A stretch of DNA of 20,000 nt. Source: an uncultured virus (IMG/VR IMGVR_UViG_2541047494_000006). Lineage: Duplodnaviria > Heunggongvirae > Uroviricota > Caudoviricetes. Position 1 is the stretch's first letter. Every line of letters begins with the position of its first letter. The position numbers and the translations under genes were made by a program. Below the pieces are notes generated by a model. The model did no database searches. It saw only the letters and a list, made by a program, of their open reading frames with translations, and was not told where the DNA came from. Location: IMG/VR virus record IMGVR_UViG_2541047494_000006. One strand, written 5' to 3'. This document shows positions 9,958 to 20,000 of the stretch, one piece after another.

Positions 9958-10062
9958 AAAACCGAAAAATCGTTGACAATATCCGTTTTGAGATTTATAA
10001 TTAAAATATCAAATAAAAAATTTAAAAAACAAAACCGAAAAATCGTTTTAAAAAATCGTTTT
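9958..10062 (+). promoter_or_regulatory. Consensus ardA promoter with repeated AAAACCGAAAAATCGTT operators
   Basis: TTGACA(9973-9978)-17-TATAAT(9996-10001). Operator copies at 9958-9974 and 10031-10047, plus a half-site near 10051-10062. Confidence 0.8.
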
Positions 10063-10086
10063 ATAATAAAAAAGGAGGATATAAAA

Positions 10087-10800
10087 ATGCTAAATATATA
10101 CATAACTAATTTAGGGAAATATAACGAAGGTGAACTAATAGGGGAATGGGCTGAACTTCCAGTAAACGAGGAAGAATTACAAGAAATATTAGATAGAATA
10201 GGGATAAATGAAGAATATGAGGAGTATTTCATAACAGATTTTGAAACAGATATAGAAGGGTTAGAAATAAGTGAACATAGCAATATAGAGCAACTGAATG
10301 AATTAGCAATGAAACTTGAGAGGTTAGAAGAATATGAGATTGAAGAGTTAAAAGCTTTACTTGAACGTGGATACATTGATTTTTATGACATGCTTGAAGG
10401 GGATATTTGCAGATTATCAGGTAATTATACTTTTATACAACTTGATGACAGGTCACCATTGGATGATGAAAATTTAGGACGTAGTTACATAGAAGAAATA
10501 TGTTGTGGTGATTTATCTTGTATAGAAAATATTGCTTACTACTTTGACATAGAAGCATTTTCAAGAGATTTACGTTTTGATAGAGATATGATTATTGAAA
10601 ATTTATACGAAGAAGATATAGAATATTATGAAAATATGACAGATATTGAATTTGCAGAGAATTATATTGAACGATTAGGAGATATTGAAGAGTTAGGTCA
10701 AGAAACACTTGAAAGATACTTTAATTATGAGCTATATGGAACTGACTTACGTTATGAGAATATTTGTATAGCATCAAATTATTTAGCTATAGTTTCTTAA
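10087..10800 (+). CDS. ardA: ArdA antirestriction protein (DNA mimic)
   Basis: MLNIYITNLGKYNEGELIGEWAELP...EEYFITDFE...YFDIEAFSRDL. Extremely acidic. AGGAGG RBS before ATG 10087. Confidence 0.92.
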   Translation: MLNIYITNLGKYNEGELIGEWAELPVNEEELQEILDRIGINEEYEEYFITDFETDIEGLEISEHSNIEQLNELAMKLERLEEYEIEELKALLERGYIDFYDMLEGDICRLSGNYTFIQLDDRSPLDDENLGRSYIEEICCGDLSCIENIAYYFDIEAFSRDLRFDRDMIIENLYEEDIEYYENMTDIEFAENYIERLGDIEELGQETLERYFNYELYGTDLRYENICIASNYLAIVS

Positions 10801-14367: not shown

Positions 14368-14956
14368 GAAAGAAATCAAAAAATATGTAAGAGAAGCTAT
14401 AAGTAATAATTTTAATTGGGAAATAGATAGATGCGGATTTTATATAAAAAATGATTCAATAAAGTTTTTTATTTCATATAAAGGACAGGGTGCAGACGAA
14501 AATATATACAACAATACTTACGAAGAAATAATTTACATTGATGATATTATAGAAGACTATAAAAGAAAAGAATATAATTTAAAAGATGTAGATTCAATAG
14601 TGCATGAAAATGTAAATAATATGATTATAGATTACAATGAGGAAATAGAAGAAAATGAAAGATGTATAAGGAGCTTTATAAAAGAACTAAAAAGTTCTGT
14701 AGGTGAAGAGTTTACAGTATTAGAATATGATAATTTTGTACAAGAAAAATATAATTATCTTGTTAATAAAACTGACTCATGGGATTTTTTTATGGAAGGT
14801 GAAGTATATAATTATTTAGATTGTGGAAGTTATACATATTCAGGATTAGGTAAAGATTATGATGTTGATATAAATATTGTCTTTGATGTAATAAAAATAA
14901 ATTCAGAAGAAGATTATAAATCTATAATAAAAATAAAAGACATTGAATTGTTATAA
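14351..14956 (+). CDS. Acidic hypothetical protein
   Basis: About 200 aa ORF with RBS AGGGGG. Start at 14345 or 14351. Confidence 0.8.
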   Translation: MKKITKKEIKKYVREAISNNFNWEIDRCGFYIKNDSIKFFISYKGQGADENIYNNTYEEIIYIDDIIEDYKRKEYNLKDVDSIVHENVNNMIIDYNEEIEENERCIRSFIKELKSSVGEEFTVLEYDNFVQEKYNYLVNKTDSWDFFMEGEVYNYLDCGSYTYSGLGKDYDVDINIVFDVIKINSEEDYKSIIKIKDIELL

Positions 14957-15062: not shown

Positions 15063-16508
15063 ATGAAAGAAGAATTAAATATAGTACCATTTTTAGCTGA
15101 GTCTTTGTCGATAAATAAAAAATGCTATAAACTCATAGATAAATATTATAATGAAAATAAATTAAAATATTCAAGTTTGGCCAAAGATAATATTTTTTAT
15201 AATTCAAGGATAGCAAGTGAAGGAAGTATAATTCAAGAATATTATTTTAAAAAATCTTTAGGTATTCTATTAGAAAGAGATGAAAAGAAAATAACAAAAA
15301 TATTTAAGGTTGGTTATACAATTGCTTACAATTATATTATTTCTATCCAAACATTTAAAGCAAGTACCTTTTTAAGAAAACTTATGTTAAAAAATAAAAT
15401 TGAAAGTTTTTCAGAGGATGAATTAAATGGTAATATGTTAGTTGCAATTTCTTTATGTGGAGCTTTAGGGAAAGAAGTTGACGAATCAGATGAAATATAT
15501 ATAAAAGTAATTAGAAATTTGATTCTAAGAAATGAAAATTATAAACATGAAAAAGTTTTATCTATAGATAGACTAAGTAAAGATGAACAAAAACTCATTA
15601 GTAAGATAGAATTAAGATTAAAATCTACATATTTAAAAGAATATATTCCAAGCTCGTATACAATTGGAATTGATGGGAGTATAGGAACTTTTAATTTAGA
15701 TGCTTTAACAGATTTAGACAGAAACCTTTTAGGATTTGATTATATATATGACCTGGAAGAATTAAGTTTAATTTCAATTGTAGGAAGAGACATACTTAAA
15801 TCTAAACAAATACAAGAATTAATTTTATGTTACTGTAATTTACAAAAAAATATAGAAGATGAAAATAGCATTAATTATGAGGATTTATTTAAATTTATAA
15901 TTCCTGCTATAGACATAAGATATTTGGCAAGAGAATATAAAAAAGCTAAACAATTTTTCTTTAATAATTTTGATGAAGAATTAAAAGAATCTATAGAAGA
16001 AAAAGACCTTAAATTGGATAGTATTAAAAAAGAAAATTCATTATTGGAGGCAGAAAATGAAAAGTTAAAATCAGAACTAGAATTGTTGCAAAAAGATAAA
16101 CTTAGATTAGAAAATGAAATCAAAGCACAACTTACATCTAAAGAAGAATTGGTTCAATTAAGAAATTTTATGTTCAACCAGCAACAAGAGCAAGAAGAGA
16201 AAGTTTTAATTGATGAAAGTATAAATTTAAAAAATATAAAAGCAATAATATTTGGTGGACATCCAAATTGGATTTTAAAAATGAAAGAAAAATTAACTAA
16301 CTTTGAATTTATATCAGCAGATACAATTAATTTTAATGTAAACATATTGAATAGTTATGAGTATGTATTTATAAACACTAATTTTATAGGACATGCTATG
16401 TACTACAAAATTATAGAAAATTTGAACGAAGATAACAAACTTAGATATATAAATAATATAAATGTAGATAGAGCAATAGAAGCTATTAAAAATGCTATTA
16501 AAATTTAA
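15063..16508 (+). CDS. Coiled-coil protein with a C-terminal DUF2325-like domain
   Basis: Long heptad region, then IIFGGHPNW...VFINTNFIGHAMYYKI, a DUF2325-like pattern recalled from memory. Confidence 0.7.
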   Translation: MKEELNIVPFLAESLSINKKCYKLIDKYYNENKLKYSSLAKDNIFYNSRIASEGSIIQEYYFKKSLGILLERDEKKITKIFKVGYTIAYNYIISIQTFKASTFLRKLMLKNKIESFSEDELNGNMLVAISLCGALGKEVDESDEIYIKVIRNLILRNENYKHEKVLSIDRLSKDEQKLISKIELRLKSTYLKEYIPSSYTIGIDGSIGTFNLDALTDLDRNLLGFDYIYDLEELSLISIVGRDILKSKQIQELILCYCNLQKNIEDENSINYEDLFKFIIPAIDIRYLAREYKKAKQFFFNNFDEELKESIEEKDLKLDSIKKENSLLEAENEKLKSELELLQKDKLRLENEIKAQLTSKEELVQLRNFMFNQQQEQEEKVLIDESINLKNIKAIIFGGHPNWILKMKEKLTNFEFISADTINFNVNILNSYEYVFINTNFIGHAMYYKIIENLNEDNKLRYINNINVDRAIEAIKNAIKI

Positions 16509-16518
16509 GGAGCGTATT

Positions 16519-16887
16519 ATGATTGATATAGATATAAATAAAAGAATAAAAGAAATAAGGGAAGATATAAATTTATCACAACAAAAATTCGGAGAAAAGC
16601 TTGGTGTGAGTAGAGATGTTATAAGTAATATAGAAAATAATAGAGTAGAAGTTAAAACAGTATTTATTACTCATATGTGTGAGGTTTTTAGTGTTAATCA
16701 AGTGTGGTTAGAAACTGGTGAGGGGAGGAAGTTTATTGAACAAGAATGTGATATTGTTTTAGGAGAAGTTTTTGCTAATATAACTGTATCTAAAAATGAA
16801 AATTTAAATGAATTGATTATAAATATTTCTAAATTAAATGATACATATATAAATAATTTAAATGAGATTGTAAAAGGTCTAATTTAA
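16519..16887 (+). CDS. XRE-family regulator (1 of 3)
   Basis: RIKEIREDINLSQQKFGEKLGVSRDVISNIE...VNQVWLETGEG. AAGGAG RBS before ATG 16519. Confidence 0.9.
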   Translation: MIDIDINKRIKEIREDINLSQQKFGEKLGVSRDVISNIENNRVEVKTVFITHMCEVFSVNQVWLETGEGRKFIEQECDIVLGEVFANITVSKNENLNELIINISKLNDTYINNLNEIVKGLI

Positions 16888-16906
16888 ATAGTGGGAGGTA
16901 TTATAA

Positions 16907-17287
16907 TTGTCTGATGAAACTATAAGTAAGAGAATTAGAAAGATAAGAAAAAATGCTAATTTATCTCAGCCAGATTTCGGGGGAAAATTAGGTGTCAGCA
17001 AAGATGTTATAAGTAATATAGAGTATGATAGGGTTGAACCCAAACCTTTACTTATTAATCATTTATGTAGTGTATTTAATGTTAATAAGGAATGGCTTAT
17101 AAATGGTACAGGTGATATGTATGTTTCTGTAAAAGAAGATATTTCTTCGATTTTAGGAGAAGTGTTCTATAAGATAGCTAGTTCAAAGGATGAAAATTTA
17201 AAAGAACTAATAATTAACATTTCTAAATTAGATGCTACATATATAGCGTCTTTGAATGAGATTGTAAAAAGGTCAATACAGAGGTGA
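16907..17287 (+). CDS. XRE-family regulator (2 of 3)
   Basis: Close paralog of the previous gene along its full length. TTG start with GGAGG. Confidence 0.9.
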   Translation: MSDETISKRIRKIRKNANLSQPDFGGKLGVSKDVISNIEYDRVEPKPLLINHLCSVFNVNKEWLINGTGDMYVSVKEDISSILGEVFYKIASSKDENLKELIINISKLDATYIASLNEIVKRSIQR

Positions 17288-17292
17288 TATTA

Positions 17293-17640
17293 ATGTGTGA
17301 TATAGGCAAGAGAATTAAAATCTTAATAGAAAATGAAAAAATAAAACAAGTTGAGTTTGCAAACAAGATAAAAGTTGACCCATCTTATATATCTAAGTTT
17401 CTATCAGATAAATCTAAAGTAATACCTAGCGATAGATTAATAGATGATATTTGTAGTACATTCAATGTTAATAAAGAATGGCTTAAAAATGGAGATGGAG
17501 AAATGTACATAGAGAATAAGTGTAATAGGAATATTTCAGAAGCGACTGACTTATTAATGGAACTTTCAATTGAATTTCAAGAATGTGCAATTAATCAAAT
17601 TAAAGACTTAATAAAATTGCAACATTCATTAAAAAAGTAG
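17293..17640 (+). CDS. XRE-family regulator (3 of 3)
   Basis: IGKRIKILIENEKIKQVEFANKIKVDPSYISKF...FNVNKEWLKNGDGEMY. GAGGTG RBS. Confidence 0.88.
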   Translation: MCDIGKRIKILIENEKIKQVEFANKIKVDPSYISKFLSDKSKVIPSDRLIDDICSTFNVNKEWLKNGDGEMYIENKCNRNISEATDLLMELSIEFQECAINQIKDLIKLQHSLKK

Positions 17641-18059: not shown

Positions 18060-18109
18060 ATGTAATTGAATTTATTTTAAAAAATTATAAAATTGAATAT
18101 AAAAATCAT

Positions 18110-18139
18110 AAAGCTGTATTGTTATAATACAGTTTTTTT
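18110..18139 (+). terminator. Rho-independent terminator
   Basis: AAAGCTGTATTG...TAATACAGTTTTTTT. Confidence 0.7.
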
Positions 18140-18194
18140 AATACAAAAATACAGATATATCTTGAATAATATTTTAAAATAGGAGGAAATTAAT

Positions 18195-18680
18195 ATGGGT
18201 AAAATGGATAAAAAAGAAGCTAAAAAATTTTTAAAGGTTGTAGATATGAATATAGATAAAATAAAGGAAGAAGCTACGAAAATTTATAAAGAATGCTACT
18301 TAATAGAAACAACTGATACTATAAGAATTTCTATAAATTTGAAAGGAGTTGTAAAAAGCACAATTTCAAGTTGGCAAGGCTATTCAGATGATATTTTTAA
18401 TATGAGAGAAATTATTGTCTATGAATTTAGTCAAGGAGAAGTTCAAATTGAAGATCTTTTAGGAGAACTTTGTTTTTTAAATGATTACGAAGAATTTGCT
18501 ACTTGGTGTGACACTGAAAGCGAAACTTTGAATTGGAATAGTTATGAAAAATTCAACAAAGAAAATTTTGACGAATTAGTCGAGAGAAATATAGAAGATA
18601 GTTTACCAGATTTTTTGGAAGAATTGAGCGAAAGTATAGAAAATTGTAAACAAGAATTAAAATCAATGATTGAAATTTAA
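18195..18680 (+). CDS. Acidic hypothetical protein (candidate anti-defence protein)
   Basis: 161 aa, strongly E/D-rich C-terminal half, AGGAGG RBS. Confidence 0.8.
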   Translation: MGKMDKKEAKKFLKVVDMNIDKIKEEATKIYKECYLIETTDTIRISINLKGVVKSTISSWQGYSDDIFNMREIIVYEFSQGEVQIEDLLGELCFLNDYEEFATWCDTESETLNWNSYEKFNKENFDELVERNIEDSLPDFLEELSESIENCKQELKSMIEI

Positions 18681-18713
18681 ATGAAAGAGTATTATTATTA
18701 ATGTATATAGTAT

Positions 18714-18944
18714 CTTTAAGATTAACTACGAGGGATTTAAAATATTTTTTAATTTATTTAGAAATGATATTATAATAAGAATTTTCAGATTAACTACAAG
18801 GGATTTAAATGTCAATTTAATTTATAGAGAAATGATATAATGGCAATTTTTTAGATTAACTATAAGGGATTTAAATATCAATTTAATCTATATCTATATG
18901 ATATAATATCACATTATTTTATATTAACTATGAGGAAATAAAAA
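18714..18944 (+). CRISPR. Degenerate type I-B CRISPR-like mini-array: 4 repeats, 3 mutually similar spacers, no leader, no cas operon in the window
   Basis: 29-nt repeats at 18714-18742, 18782-18810, 18848-18876 and 18916-18944 (core AGATTAACTAYRAGGGATTTAAAT). They resemble the C. difficile repeat GTTTTAKATTAACTA...GG.ATGTAAAT. Spacers are 39/37/39 nt. Confidence 0.8.
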
Positions 18945-18975
18945 CAGTGCATTCAGATAAATACACTGTTTTTTT
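18940..18975. terminator. Bidirectional terminator between the array and the convergent gene
   Basis: AAAAACAGTG...CACTGTTTTTTT. Confidence 0.75.
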
Positions 18976-18985
18976 AATGCTAAAA

Positions 18986-19285
18986 TTAGTCATTATGATA
19001 ACTTAATCCTTCGATTATAAATCCTATATTCGTCGTCATTTCTGCTTCATCACTTTGTAATATTCCTTCTGTAAATTCGCTATCGCTTGATAATGTTATT
19101 TTTTTCCTTGCCACCATTTCCAAAATTGTTTGAAATAGTTTAATTTTCATATTCTTATCAAGTCCAGCATATTGCAAATAGTTTGCTACTTCTTGCGAAA
19201 ATTTAGTTAACTCTGATTTAGTCATTTTTTTAGATAATTCTTTTCCAATGCTTAGATAAACTTTTTTAGATTGTTCAACATCCAT
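18986..19285 (-). CDS. 99-aa helical protein resembling the Cas8b C-terminal/Cas11 domain (AcrIB4-like candidate)
   Basis: ATG 19285 behind AAGGGG. The pattern IGKELSKK...LFQTIL...FTEGILQSDE...TNIGFIIEGL recalls Cas8b C-termini (by eye, unverified). Promoter TTGAAG(19340-19345)-17-TATAAT(19317-19322). Confidence 0.55.
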   Translation of the reverse strand: MDVEQSKKVYLSIGKELSKKMTKSELTKFSQEVANYLQYAGLDKNMKIKLFQTILEMVARKKITLSSDSEFTEGILQSDEAEMTTNIGFIIEGLSYHND

Positions 19286-19548
19286 TTTTTTCAACCCCTT
19301 TTTAGATTATAATTAAATTATATTTTAAAAATGCTAATACTTCAAATATAAATATTTTTGTTTAAGTATAAAACTGATTTCAATAATTCGGATTTTATAT
19401 TTAATAGATTGTGTTACTTAAAGTTAATAAATAAATTAGAAAGATGTATGGTACTAAAATCTAGTAATAAGTTAAAGTATAACAGCACTTTAGGGTTAAT
19501 TTTGTAGTAAGTATATAAAGTCAATATACTAAATTACAATAAAATTGC

Positions 19549-20000
19549 CAAAAAGCCCTCTCCTTTAGGTGTAGGGATGAAAGGTAAGGTCTTAATATAA
19601 AAAAAGTTAGAATAATGCTTGTAATCTAATACCACTACTGATACCCTATATTTAGGAGGTGTTAGTTTTTATGTATAAATCTAACGAAAATATAGTTTAT
19701 GATTGCAAATATCATATTGTATTTTGCCCTAAGTATCGTAAACCTGTTTTAGTTGGCGAAGTTGAAAAGATGTTAAAAGAAATACTACCATATAAAGCAG
19801 ATGAACTTGGAGCAGAAATAATAGAAATGGAAACTGATAAAGAACATGTGCACTTATTAATATCTTGTGACCCTCAATATGGAATTCATAAAGTAGTAAA
19901 AGGTTTAAAAGGCTTTAGTTCGAGAGTATTAAGAGAGAACTTTCCACATTTAAAGTCTAGTATGCCTAGCATGTGGACTAATAGTTATTTCGTAGGAACT
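19549..20000 (+). mobile_element. IS200/IS605-family element, left part
   Basis: Subterminal hairpin-like end AAGCCCTCTCCTTTAGGTGTAGGG followed by tnpA. The left boundary is approximate. Confidence 0.8.
19671..20000 (+). CDS. tnpA: IS200/IS605 HUH (Y1) transposase, partial
   Basis: Own translation: MYKSNENIVYDCKYHIVFCPKYRKPVL...DKEHVHLLI...LKGFSSRVLR...MWTNSYFVGT. HUH motif HVH, AGGAGG RBS. Confidence 0.95.
   Translation, partial: MYKSNENIVYDCKYHIVFCPKYRKPVLVGEVEKMLKEILPYKADELGAEIIEMETDKEHVHLLISCDPQYGIHKVVKGLKGFSSRVLRENFPHLKSSMPSMWTNSYFVGT

What the first reader, a model, noticed from the sequence alone, without database searches (positions are those of the whole stretch)
18986..19285. Stand-alone small helical protein resembling the Cas8b C-terminal (Cas11b) bundle
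The size (99 aa), the all-helical look and the motif spacing (G-x-E-L near the N-terminus, F-x-x-x-I-L mid-protein, terminal G-F-I-I-E-G-L) match my recollection of Cas8b C-termini, which in type I-B are also translated internally as Cas11. A phage-borne copy would be an AcrIB4-like anti-CRISPR for C. difficile. The resemblance is by eye only.
Basis: inference. Interest (0 to 1): 0.75.

Follow-up and report, generated by a model that had tools for sequence, protein, structure and literature searches.

The report
Phage copy of host Cas11b subunit
A Clostridioides difficile phage gene that sits beside a known anti-CRISPR gene encodes a diverged copy of the small subunit (Cas11b) of the host's own CRISPR complex, most likely a decoy that sabotages that complex.

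Summary
The ORF is real: 18986..19285 (-), 99 aa, in C. difficile megaphage phiCD211/phiCDIF1296T, annotated 'hypothetical'. A profile of the family finds one place in a whole C. difficile genome, the last ~90 residues of Cas8b of the 'partial' cas operon (E 5e-15). hhalign against that Cas8b family gives 98.6%, E 1e-15. The other ('full') operon's Cas8b is not matched.

Host cas8b carries an internal ribosome site and ATG for a 91-aa Cas11b that is co-linear with the phage protein. The AF2 model (pLDDT 93) is a five-helix bundle. Its three best PDB matches of 48,161 chains are small-subunit-sized chains of Cascade entries, the same three as for the host Cas11b model, at modest Z.

The family forms its own long-stemmed clade, is under purifying selection, and has replaced conserved basic residues. 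In 29 of 29 phage records it lies tail-to-tail with an acrIB2 homologue.

Most likely it is an AcrIB4-like Cas11 mimic. The homology is shown; the activity is inferred and untested.

The parts
18986..19285 (-). Target gene: stand-alone 99-aa homologue of host Cas11b (the C-terminal domain of partial-operon Cas8b). phrog_4021; phiCD211 PHICD211_20147.
19295..19300 (-). Shine-Dalgarno-like AAGGGG, nine bases upstream of the ATG.
   Evidence: read from the sequence
19317..19345 (-). Promoter-like site TTGAAG-17-TATAAT upstream of the gene. It is a consensus match only, because such sites are not enriched in this AT-rich region.
   Evidence: 12 sites found against 13.7 expected
18940..18973 (.). 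Hairpin with a 15-bp stem between the convergent genes, followed by a U-run on the target's strand. Likely a two-way terminator.
   Evidence: -16.3 kcal/mol, z -5.2, 0 of 200 shuffles as good
18714..18945 (+). Context: four CRISPR-repeat-like units with three spacer-like units. Annotated as a CRISPR array, but conserved as a whole in other phages and homologous to a mini-array upstream of the host partial cas operon.
18195..18680 (+). Context: acrIB2 homologue (161 aa), convergent with the target. About 50% identical to the validated phiCD38-2 gene.
   Evidence: PMC10732046 sections 5 and 8
19358..19507 (+). Context: 49-aa ORF whose last 39 residues are 67% identical to the C-terminus of host partial-operon Cas3. 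The DNA likeness runs on past the stop, so it is probably a remnant.

Best explanation
The gene encodes a phage-borne, diverged copy of Cas11b. Cas11b is the small subunit that the host makes by internal translation of the 3' end of cas8b in its 'partial' type I-B cas operon, the operon reported to carry out interference.

Shown: the homology, the shared predicted fold, the separate and fast-evolved clade, purifying selection, and strict linkage to acrIB2.

Inferred: the protein is made from its own promoter and enters host Cascade in a Cas11b position, next to the Cas8b C-terminal domain and along the Cas7 backbone. It has replaced conserved basic residues and carries two small insertions. 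The poisoned complex therefore fails to hold the non-target strand, so it cannot complete or lock the R-loop and interference fails. This is the subunit-poisoning mechanism proposed for Listeria AcrIB4. It would act together with the neighbouring AcrIB2, reported to bind Cas3, and the repeat-like RNA units.
For: Homology:
- phmmer over 1.84e9 representatives gives 6 hits. One is the C. difficile protein P0067, matched at residues 400-481, E 6.7e-4. P0067 is full-length PADLOC Cas8b PDLC01144, E 7.8e-153.
- BLASTP: 36% identity over 89 residues, E 2e-12.
- Family profile A2 against the six frames of a 4.1-Mb C. difficile genome: one hit, E 5.3e-15, at the Cas8b C-terminus.
- hhalign A2 against the Cas8b family: 98.6%, E 1e-15, 84 columns.
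- A2 hits the extreme C-terminus in 19 of 26 Cas8b relatives at domain E < 1e-3.

Operon:
- The locus is cas6-cas8b-cas7-cas5-cas3 without cas4/1/2.
- The full operon's Cas8b is not matched, probability 0.07%.

Internal Cas11b: GGAGAGGAGGAG plus ATG at codon 401 of host cas8b gives a 91-aa product co-linear with the target.

Fold:
- AF2 pLDDT 93.1, five helices. The host Cas11b model has the same helix order, pLDDT 91.3.
- VIA-align over 48,161 chains ranks 8fcj_J (Z 7.8), 3wa8_B CasB (Z 7.7) and 5u07_B (Z 7.6) first. The host model gets the same three at Z 6.4-7.1.

Divergence:
- Own clade with support 97/94 on a long stem inside the Cas8b C-terminal tree.
- Fixed changes at conserved basic positions (K to E at target residue 32; the R-R/K-K stretch becomes E-L-N/T; H to E at residue 56) and two insertions.
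- Net charge -2 against +2 for host Cas11b. 17 of 18 Cas8b C-termini have net charge >= 0.

Selection and linkage:
- dN/dS 0.14-0.26.
- 29 of 29 phage records with the gene (20 distinct phages, my count) also carry an acrIB2 homologue, convergent and 115-320 bp away (my arithmetic on the tables). 29 of 31 acrIB2 records carry the gene.

Precedent: AcrIB4, and its predicted replacement of Cas11.

Weak hint of expression: one RNA-library contig of 303 nt covers only 19002-19291. Contigs do not prove transcription.
Against: - No functional test exists, and binding to Cascade could not be modelled here.
- AcrIB2 alone was enough in the published assays. The phiCD38-2 lysogen, which carries both genes, raised survival only about 10-fold (PMC10732046 section 8).
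- In 3 of 6 phage loci inspected (phiCDHM13, JD032, phiCD111) the gene lies downstream of parA and a 110-aa gene on the same strand. It could therefore belong to a maintenance or lysogeny module.
- The structural Z scores (7.6-7.8) are in the range that helical bundles reach by chance. Foldseek found nothing at E < 0.9 in the PDB or BFVD.
- The target itself gave no PADLOC hit at E <= 1. Only its relative P0064 did, at 5e-4.
- The host locus seems to carry a CRISPR-guarded toxin-like module. Such a module would punish an inhibitor that stops Cascade from binding DNA.
- The charge shift is modest.
Confidence: 0.6

Rival explanations
1. Cascade re-tooling rather than plain inhibition. The Cas11 copy works with the adjacent viral repeat-like RNAs. 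It yields Cascade complexes that still bind DNA through a short seed and repress the host promoter next to the host mini-array (a toxin-like ORF and/or the cas operon), but that cannot form the full R-loop needed to recruit Cas3.
For: - The phage units are conserved, spacers included, in 6 of 6 phages aligned.
- They resemble a two-repeat mini-array about 500 bp upstream of host cas6.
- The first phage spacer-like unit shares its first 15 bases with the host one.
- The host unit matches a CCA PAM plus 11 of 12 seed bases, with the mismatch at position 6, beside the -35 of a near-consensus promoter. That promoter drives a 56-aa hydrophobic ORF. Only 5 such sites occur in the 4.1-Mb genome, against 4 for the control pattern.
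- CCW is the PAM (PMC4556805 passages).
- Viral crRNA-like RNAs that cooperate with Acr proteins are described in the abstract and outline of bioRxiv 10.1101/2024.10.29.618823.
Against: - There is no evidence that Cas11 is dispensable for seed-only binding in this system.
- AcrIB4, the closest precedent, abolished CRISPRi-type DNA binding.
- Targets for the second and third phage spacer-like units were not found.
- Everything about the host module is inferred from sequence.
Confidence: 0.2
2. An exapted Cas11-derived fold with a role unrelated to CRISPR, for example an accessory of the parA partition or lysogeny-maintenance module of plasmid-like prophages.
For: Same-strand position downstream of parA and a 110-aa gene in phiCDHM13, JD032 and phiCD111. 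ParA is confirmed by NCBIfam. PMC10732046 calls the region downstream of acrIB2 a putative lysogenic conversion region.
Against: - phiCD211, phiCD418 and CD1801 keep the gene next to acrIB2 without parA.
- A 144-bp gap separates it from the upstream gene in phiCDHM13.
- Linkage is with acrIB2 in 29 of 29 records.
- The specific likeness to the interference-active operon's Cas8b is unexplained by this reading.
Confidence: 0.1
3. A working Cas11 supplied by the phage to boost host Cascade for phage-borne CRISPR arrays in inter-phage warfare.
For: PMC10732046 (section 8) suggests the phiCD211 locus may serve inter-phage warfare. The fold and core residues of Cas11b are kept.
Against: - The 'array' is not adaptive: its spacer-like units are conserved among phages.
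- Conserved basic residues are replaced.
- The long stem and separate clade speak for a changed function.
- The gene lies next to an anti-CRISPR gene.
Confidence: 0.05

Closest known systems
AcrIB4 (Listeria seeligeri mobile elements; bioRxiv 10.1101/2023.06.24.545427, passages seen)
   Same: A small stand-alone protein on a mobile element. [quoted passage not shown]
   Different: The host and the parent Cas8b family differ (PADLOC PDLC01144 of the C. difficile partial operon). Of the 6 phmmer hits, the 3 whose source was looked up are from C. difficile, so this looks like an independent capture. Direct comparison with the AcrIB4 sequence was not possible because no sequence was at hand. Activity is untested here, whereas AcrIB4 was shown to block interference and DNA binding.
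Cas11b, the small subunit translated from an internal start in cas8b (Synechocystis I-B Cascade, PMC11096372, passages seen)
   Same: A five-helix bundle of about 90-100 residues, co-linear with the Cas8b C-terminal domain. The host gene has the internal ribosome site.
   Different: The target is encoded on a phage as its own gene, outside any cas operon. Conserved basic residues are replaced and two insertions are present. It has no sequence likeness to solved Cas11/Cas8b chains.
AcrIB3 (Cas5 homologue) and AcrIF3 (mimic of the Cas8f helical bundle)
   Same: Inhibition by imitation of a Cascade part. AcrIB3 co-purifies with Cascade.
   Different: Different subunits are imitated. The AcrIF3 comparison is recalled from memory, not from a call; it binds Cas2/3 rather than entering Cascade.
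AcrIB2 of phiCD38-2 (PMC10732046)
   Same: Same locus, same host system and same target operon. It is the convergent neighbour.
   Different: An unrelated acidic protein proposed to bind Cas3 as a DNA mimic. [quoted passage not shown]

Membership tests
Cas11b / Cas8b C-terminal domain (PDLC01144-type Cas8b of the C. difficile partial operon) | Significant sequence similarity to the last ~90 residues of Cas8b | tested here: met
Cas11b / Cas8b C-terminal domain (PDLC01144-type Cas8b of the C. difficile partial operon) | Same predicted helix order as the host Cas11b model, with Cascade small-subunit chains as best solved matches | tested here: met
   The Z scores are modest (7.6-7.8 for the target, 6.4-7.1 for the host model). 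Only 3wa8, 4h79 and 2zca name the small subunit in their titles; the other chain identities are inferred from chain length.
Cas11b / Cas8b C-terminal domain (PDLC01144-type Cas8b of the C. difficile partial operon) | Encoded inside a cas operon, within the 3' end of cas8b | tested here: not met
   Stand-alone gene on phages and plasmid-prophages.
Cas11b / Cas8b C-terminal domain (PDLC01144-type Cas8b of the C. difficile partial operon) | Conserved basic residues of the Cas8b C-terminal domain | tested here: not met
   (K to E, R-R/K-K to E-L-N/T, H to E). Whether these residues touch DNA in this system is not known.
Cas11b / Cas8b C-terminal domain (PDLC01144-type Cas8b of the C. difficile partial operon) | Assembles into Cascade | not testable with these tools
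AcrIB4-like Cas8b-C-terminus mimics | Small mobile-element protein about 35-40% identical to the host Cas8b C-terminus, in a clade of its own | tested here: met
AcrIB4-like Cas8b-C-terminus mimics | Sequence similarity to Listeria AcrIB4 itself | not tested
   No AcrIB4 sequence was available from a tool. Indirectly, of the 6 phmmer hits the 3 looked up are C. difficile proteins, and there is no likeness to the full-operon Cst1-type Cas8b.
AcrIB4-like Cas8b-C-terminus mimics | Inhibits type I-B interference | not testable with these tools
   Needs the bench assay.
Aca-type helix-turn-helix regulator of acr loci | A detectable HTH DNA-binding domain | tested here: not met
   No HTH family in Pfam at E <= 10 or in NCBIfam at E <= 1. 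The three HTH genes at 16492-17640 do hit.

The most novel reading that the evidence does not exclude
The phage carries a coordinated 'mimicry island' against one host system. It comprises a Cas3-binding AcrIB2, a Cas11b look-alike, and copies of the host's own cas-regulating crRNA-like RNA.

In this reading the Cas11b look-alike turns host Cascade into a complex that cannot recruit Cas3. The viral RNAs then steer that complex onto the host promoter which drives a CRISPR-guarding toxin-like gene and the cas operon. Interference is switched off without setting off the host's anti-anti-CRISPR alarm.
Probability: 0.15. Interest if true: 0.85.

Novelty: new member of a known kind. Interest (0 to 1): 0.62.

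Why it matters
C. difficile has very active type I-B immunity, and only one anti-CRISPR, AcrIB2, has been validated for it. This gene is AcrIB2's constant neighbour in 29 of 29 phage records. The AcrIB2 paper left it as a conserved gene of unknown function.

Showing that it is a diverged copy of the Cas11b of the very operon that performs interference gives a concrete and cheap hypothesis to test. If it holds, it would be the second, independently evolved case of an anti-CRISPR that imitates the Cascade small subunit. It could also explain part of the protection seen in lysogens.

The locus further gives a natural setting to ask how protein mimics and crRNA-like RNAs cooperate.

No paper describing this homology was found in the searches. 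The supplements of the two bioRxiv preprints, which hold lists of viral cas genes and viral crRNA-like RNAs, could not be seen and may already list it.

Tried and rejected
Searches on the target that gave nothing useful:
- Pfam, NCBIfam and PADLOC: nothing above noise.
- Word-indexed search for longer proteins with profile A2: none of 8000 candidates at E <= 0.01, probably through word crowding.
- Foldseek against the PDB (best E 0.95) and BFVD (best E 0.53): no significant match.
- Profile or sequence against PDB chains: nothing for A2 (best E 0.37) or for Cas8b P0068.
- ESM Atlas: best score 0.75, below noise.
- Earlier findings of the scan: none.

Steps that could not be run:
- No whole genome is held for the window.

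Context of the divergent relatives P0064 (97 aa) and P0066 (four tandem copies):
- Neither was found in IMG/VR.
- P0066 was not found in plasmids. The P0064 query found only the main family, in 24 C. difficile plasmid records.

Expression and signals:
- The promoter scan is not above chance, 12 sites found against 13.7 expected. The terminator scan missed the hairpin, which has too few G-C pairs for its rule.
- RNA-library contigs: X1-X3 show no cover at 18100-19017 and very deep short contigs inside the ORF. Contigs cannot rank genes or prove transcription, and holes prove nothing.
- The CDHS-1 transcriptome paper gives no gene-level statement for the homologue in the sections read.

Adjacent repeat units:
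- PAM plus seed of the second and third phage spacer-like units: one site in the host genome in a region without clear genes, and none in the nearest phage record, which is 48% complete.
- Rfam: only a sub-threshold CRISPR-DR14 match, 28.6 bits against a cut-off of 45.

Readings rejected:
- An Aca-type regulator, because there is no HTH.
- An adaptive CRISPR array next door, because the spacer-like units are conserved.

Full report
**What is there.** The window matches the C. difficile megaphages phiCD211, phiCDIF1296T and LIBA2945 at 100% over 18600-19650. The finding's ORF is on the minus strand, 18986..19285, 99 aa from ATG. AAGGGG lies nine bases upstream of the ATG. A consensus-like TTGAAG-17-TATAAT sits at 19345-19317, although such sites are not enriched in this region. 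Twelve bases after the stop comes a hairpin with a 15-bp stem (-16.3 kcal/mol, z -5.2) followed by a U-run. phiCD211 annotates the gene as hypothetical, PHICD211_20147. PHROGs places it in phrog_4021, unknown function. Pfam, NCBIfam and PADLOC give nothing.

**Is it a real gene?** Yes. There are 62 relatives at E <= 1e-3, 71-97% identical, and every one with a source name is from C. difficile. The exact protein is seen on 878 contigs. Over 93 shared codons in five phages, dN/dS is 0.14-0.26 in 10 of 10 pairs.

**The Cas8b link.**
- phmmer against 1.84 billion representatives returned only six proteins. One, P0067 (485 aa, C. difficile), matches at residues 400-481 (E 6.7e-4). It is a full-length hit to PADLOC PDLC01144, 'Cas8b, new large subunit family' (E 7.8e-153).
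- Pairwise BLASTP gives 35-36% identity over 89 residues, E 2e-12.
- A 15-row family profile (A2) searched over the six frames of a whole 4.1-Mb C. difficile genome gave a single hit at E <= 10. That hit has E 5.3e-15, covers profile positions 5-94 of 99, and lies at the end of a 494-codon frame.
- hhalign of A2 against 22 Cas8b relatives gives 98.6%, E 1e-15, over 84 columns at the extreme C-terminus.
- In a local hmmsearch, A2 hit the C-terminus at domain E < 1e-3 in 19 of 26 Cas8b relatives, and more weakly or not at all in 7.

**Which operon.** The matched Cas8b lies in cas6-cas8b-cas7-cas5-cas3, and no cas4/1/2 homologue was found among the three ORFs downstream of cas3. This is the 'partial' operon of Boudry et al. 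(PMC4556805, passages). The same genome holds the full operon (Cas1; locus). Its 625-aa Cas8b shows no likeness to A2 (probability 0.07%). Muzyukina et al. [quoted passage not shown]

**Cas11b.** Inside host cas8b, GGAGAGGAGGAG is followed six bases later by an in-frame ATG at codon 401. This gives a 91-aa product that is co-linear with the whole phage protein. It fits the internal translation of Cas11b described for Synechocystis type I-B (PMC11096372, passages). Translation from this start in C. difficile is inferred, not shown.

**Fold.**
- AF2 with a 30-row alignment gives pLDDT 93.1, pTM 0.85 and five helices. The host 91-aa product modelled in the same way gives pLDDT 91.3 and the same helix order.
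- Foldseek found no significant PDB or BFVD match. Its best-TM rows were type III-A (Csm) complex chains, TM 0.50-0.52.
- VIA-align against 48,161 chains ranked first a 109-residue chain of the type I-B CAST Cascade (8fcj_J: Z 7.8, rmsd 2.8, 87 aligned). Next came M. ruber CasB (3wa8_B: Z 7.7) and a chain of the I-E Cascade entry 5u07 (Z 7.6). Further Cascade and Csm entries follow lower down.
- The host model gets the same three on top, at Z 6.4-7.1.
- These Z values alone would not prove a fold, since the tool warns about helical bundles. The phage protein does, however, resemble Cas11 as well as the genuine host domain does.

**How it differs from Cas11b.** The tree had 37 rows: 15 family members, 4 repeats of P0066 and 18 Cas8b C-termini. 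Left out were the truncated P0063, P0065 and P0073, and the 7 weak Cas8b hits. In this tree the phage family is one clade (97/94) on a long stem. It is nested beside the C. difficile Cas8b group and P0074 when rooted on the most distant Cas8b rows. Fixed differences include K to E at target residue 32, the R-R/K-K stretch becoming E-L-N/T, H to E at residue 56, a 5-residue insertion and a 2-residue insertion. Net charge is -2 (pI 5.4) against +2 (pI 9.1) for host Cas11b. Of 18 Cas8b C-termini, 17 have net charge >= 0. In Synechocystis the small subunits hold the non-target strand through positive charges. Whether these particular residues do so in C. difficile is inference.

**Neighbourhood.**
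- The convergent upstream gene 18195..18680 is the acrIB2 homologue, about 50% identical to phiCD38-2. Its split forms are matched by two PHROGs.
- tblastn finds the target in 29 phage records, which are 20 distinct phages by my count. All 29 also carry the acrIB2 homologue, convergent and 115-320 bp away. Of 31 acrIB2 records, 29 carry the target.
- phiCD38-2, the phage used to validate AcrIB2, carries it too.
[quoted passage not shown] 'gp30', 'Cas8' and 'Cas11' do not occur in its text.
- In phiCDHM13, JD032 and phiCD111 the gene follows parA and a 110-aa gene on the same strand. In phiCD211, phiCD418 and CD1801 it does not.

**Comparison with what is known.** AcrIB4 of Listeria seeligeri is 38% identical to the last 90 residues of its host's Cas8b. 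It blocks type I-B interference and CRISPRi-type DNA binding without preventing Cascade assembly, and its homologues were limited to Listeria. A later preprint predicts that it replaces Cas11. A 2026 review calls its mechanism unclear. The present family has the same relation to a different Cas8b family in a different host, so I file it as a new member of that kind and not as a member of the AcrIB4 sequence family, which I could not test.

**Mechanism and odds.** I am near certain that the protein is a Cas11b homologue. I put about 0.6 on its acting as a Cascade-poisoning anti-CRISPR. About 0.2 goes to the variant in which it cooperates with the adjacent crRNA-like RNAs to keep Cascade as a Cas3-blind repressor. 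The remainder goes to an unrelated or pro-CRISPR role. Binding could not be modelled, and no expression data of adequate kind were at hand.

Noticed in passing
window 18714-18945 (+); L007 7729-7826: The annotated 'CRISPR array' of phiCD211 is not an adaptive array. Its repeats and its spacer-like units are conserved in 6 of 6 phages aligned, which carry 3 or 4 units. The whole resembles a two-repeat mini-array about 500 bp upstream of cas6 of the host partial operon. The first phage unit shares its first 15 bases with the host unit. The published reading that its spacers target other phages may simply reflect the homologous units in those phages. It looks like a viral copy of a host cas-regulating crRNA-like RNA, the kind described in bioRxiv 10.1101/2024.10.29.618823.
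   Followed up: partly
L007 7860-8155 (host chromosome, upstream of cas6): The host spacer-like unit matches a CCA PAM plus 11 of 12 seed bases, with the mismatch at position 6, right beside the -35 of a TTGACT-17-TATAAT promoter. That promoter drives a 56-aa hydrophobic ORF just ahead of the cas operon. Only 5 such sites occur in the genome, against 4 for the control pattern. This is a CreTA/CreR-like layout and appears undescribed for C. difficile in the papers I read.
   Followed up: partly
window 19358-19507 (+), likeness about 19388-19530: The tiny ORF annotated 'Cas3-HD' is really like the last 39 residues of partial-operon Cas3: 67% identity, and PADLOC Cas3b positions 695-733 of 734. 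The DNA likeness continues about 25 bases past the stop, so it is probably a remnant of captured host DNA rather than a gene. It is absent from the small phages, whose matches end before it.
   Followed up: partly
L007 10183-10204 and 10201-10476: Host cas8b of the partial operon has a strong internal Shine-Dalgarno sequence and an ATG for a 91-aa Cas11b. NCBI names these Cas8b proteins 'hypothetical protein'.
   Followed up: partly
protein P0066 (387 aa, C. difficile): This protein is made of four to five tandem copies of the same Cas11b-like domain (domain E down to 5e-11). It resembles a ready-made small-subunit filament. Its genomic context was not found.
   Followed up: partly
L007 about 14915-14945: A further solitary CRISPR-repeat-like unit lies about 170 bp downstream of the host cas3 stop (seen in the alignment).
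   Followed up: no
window 16492-17640 (+): Three consecutive paralogous helix-turn-helix regulator genes of 131, 126 and 118 aa, all best to phrog_8.
   Followed up: no
window 9973-10800 (+) and 19659-20000 (+): An anti-restriction protein homologue (phrog_2059, E 4e-51) and the start of an IS200/IS605-type transposase (phrog_2577) flank the region.
   Followed up: no
window 19002-19291: In one RNA library of a second study, a single 303-nt contig covers just the target gene, with an adapter at one end. Three libraries of another study hold very deep short contigs inside the ORF. This is suggestive of a separate abundant transcript, but contigs cannot prove it.
   Followed up: partly
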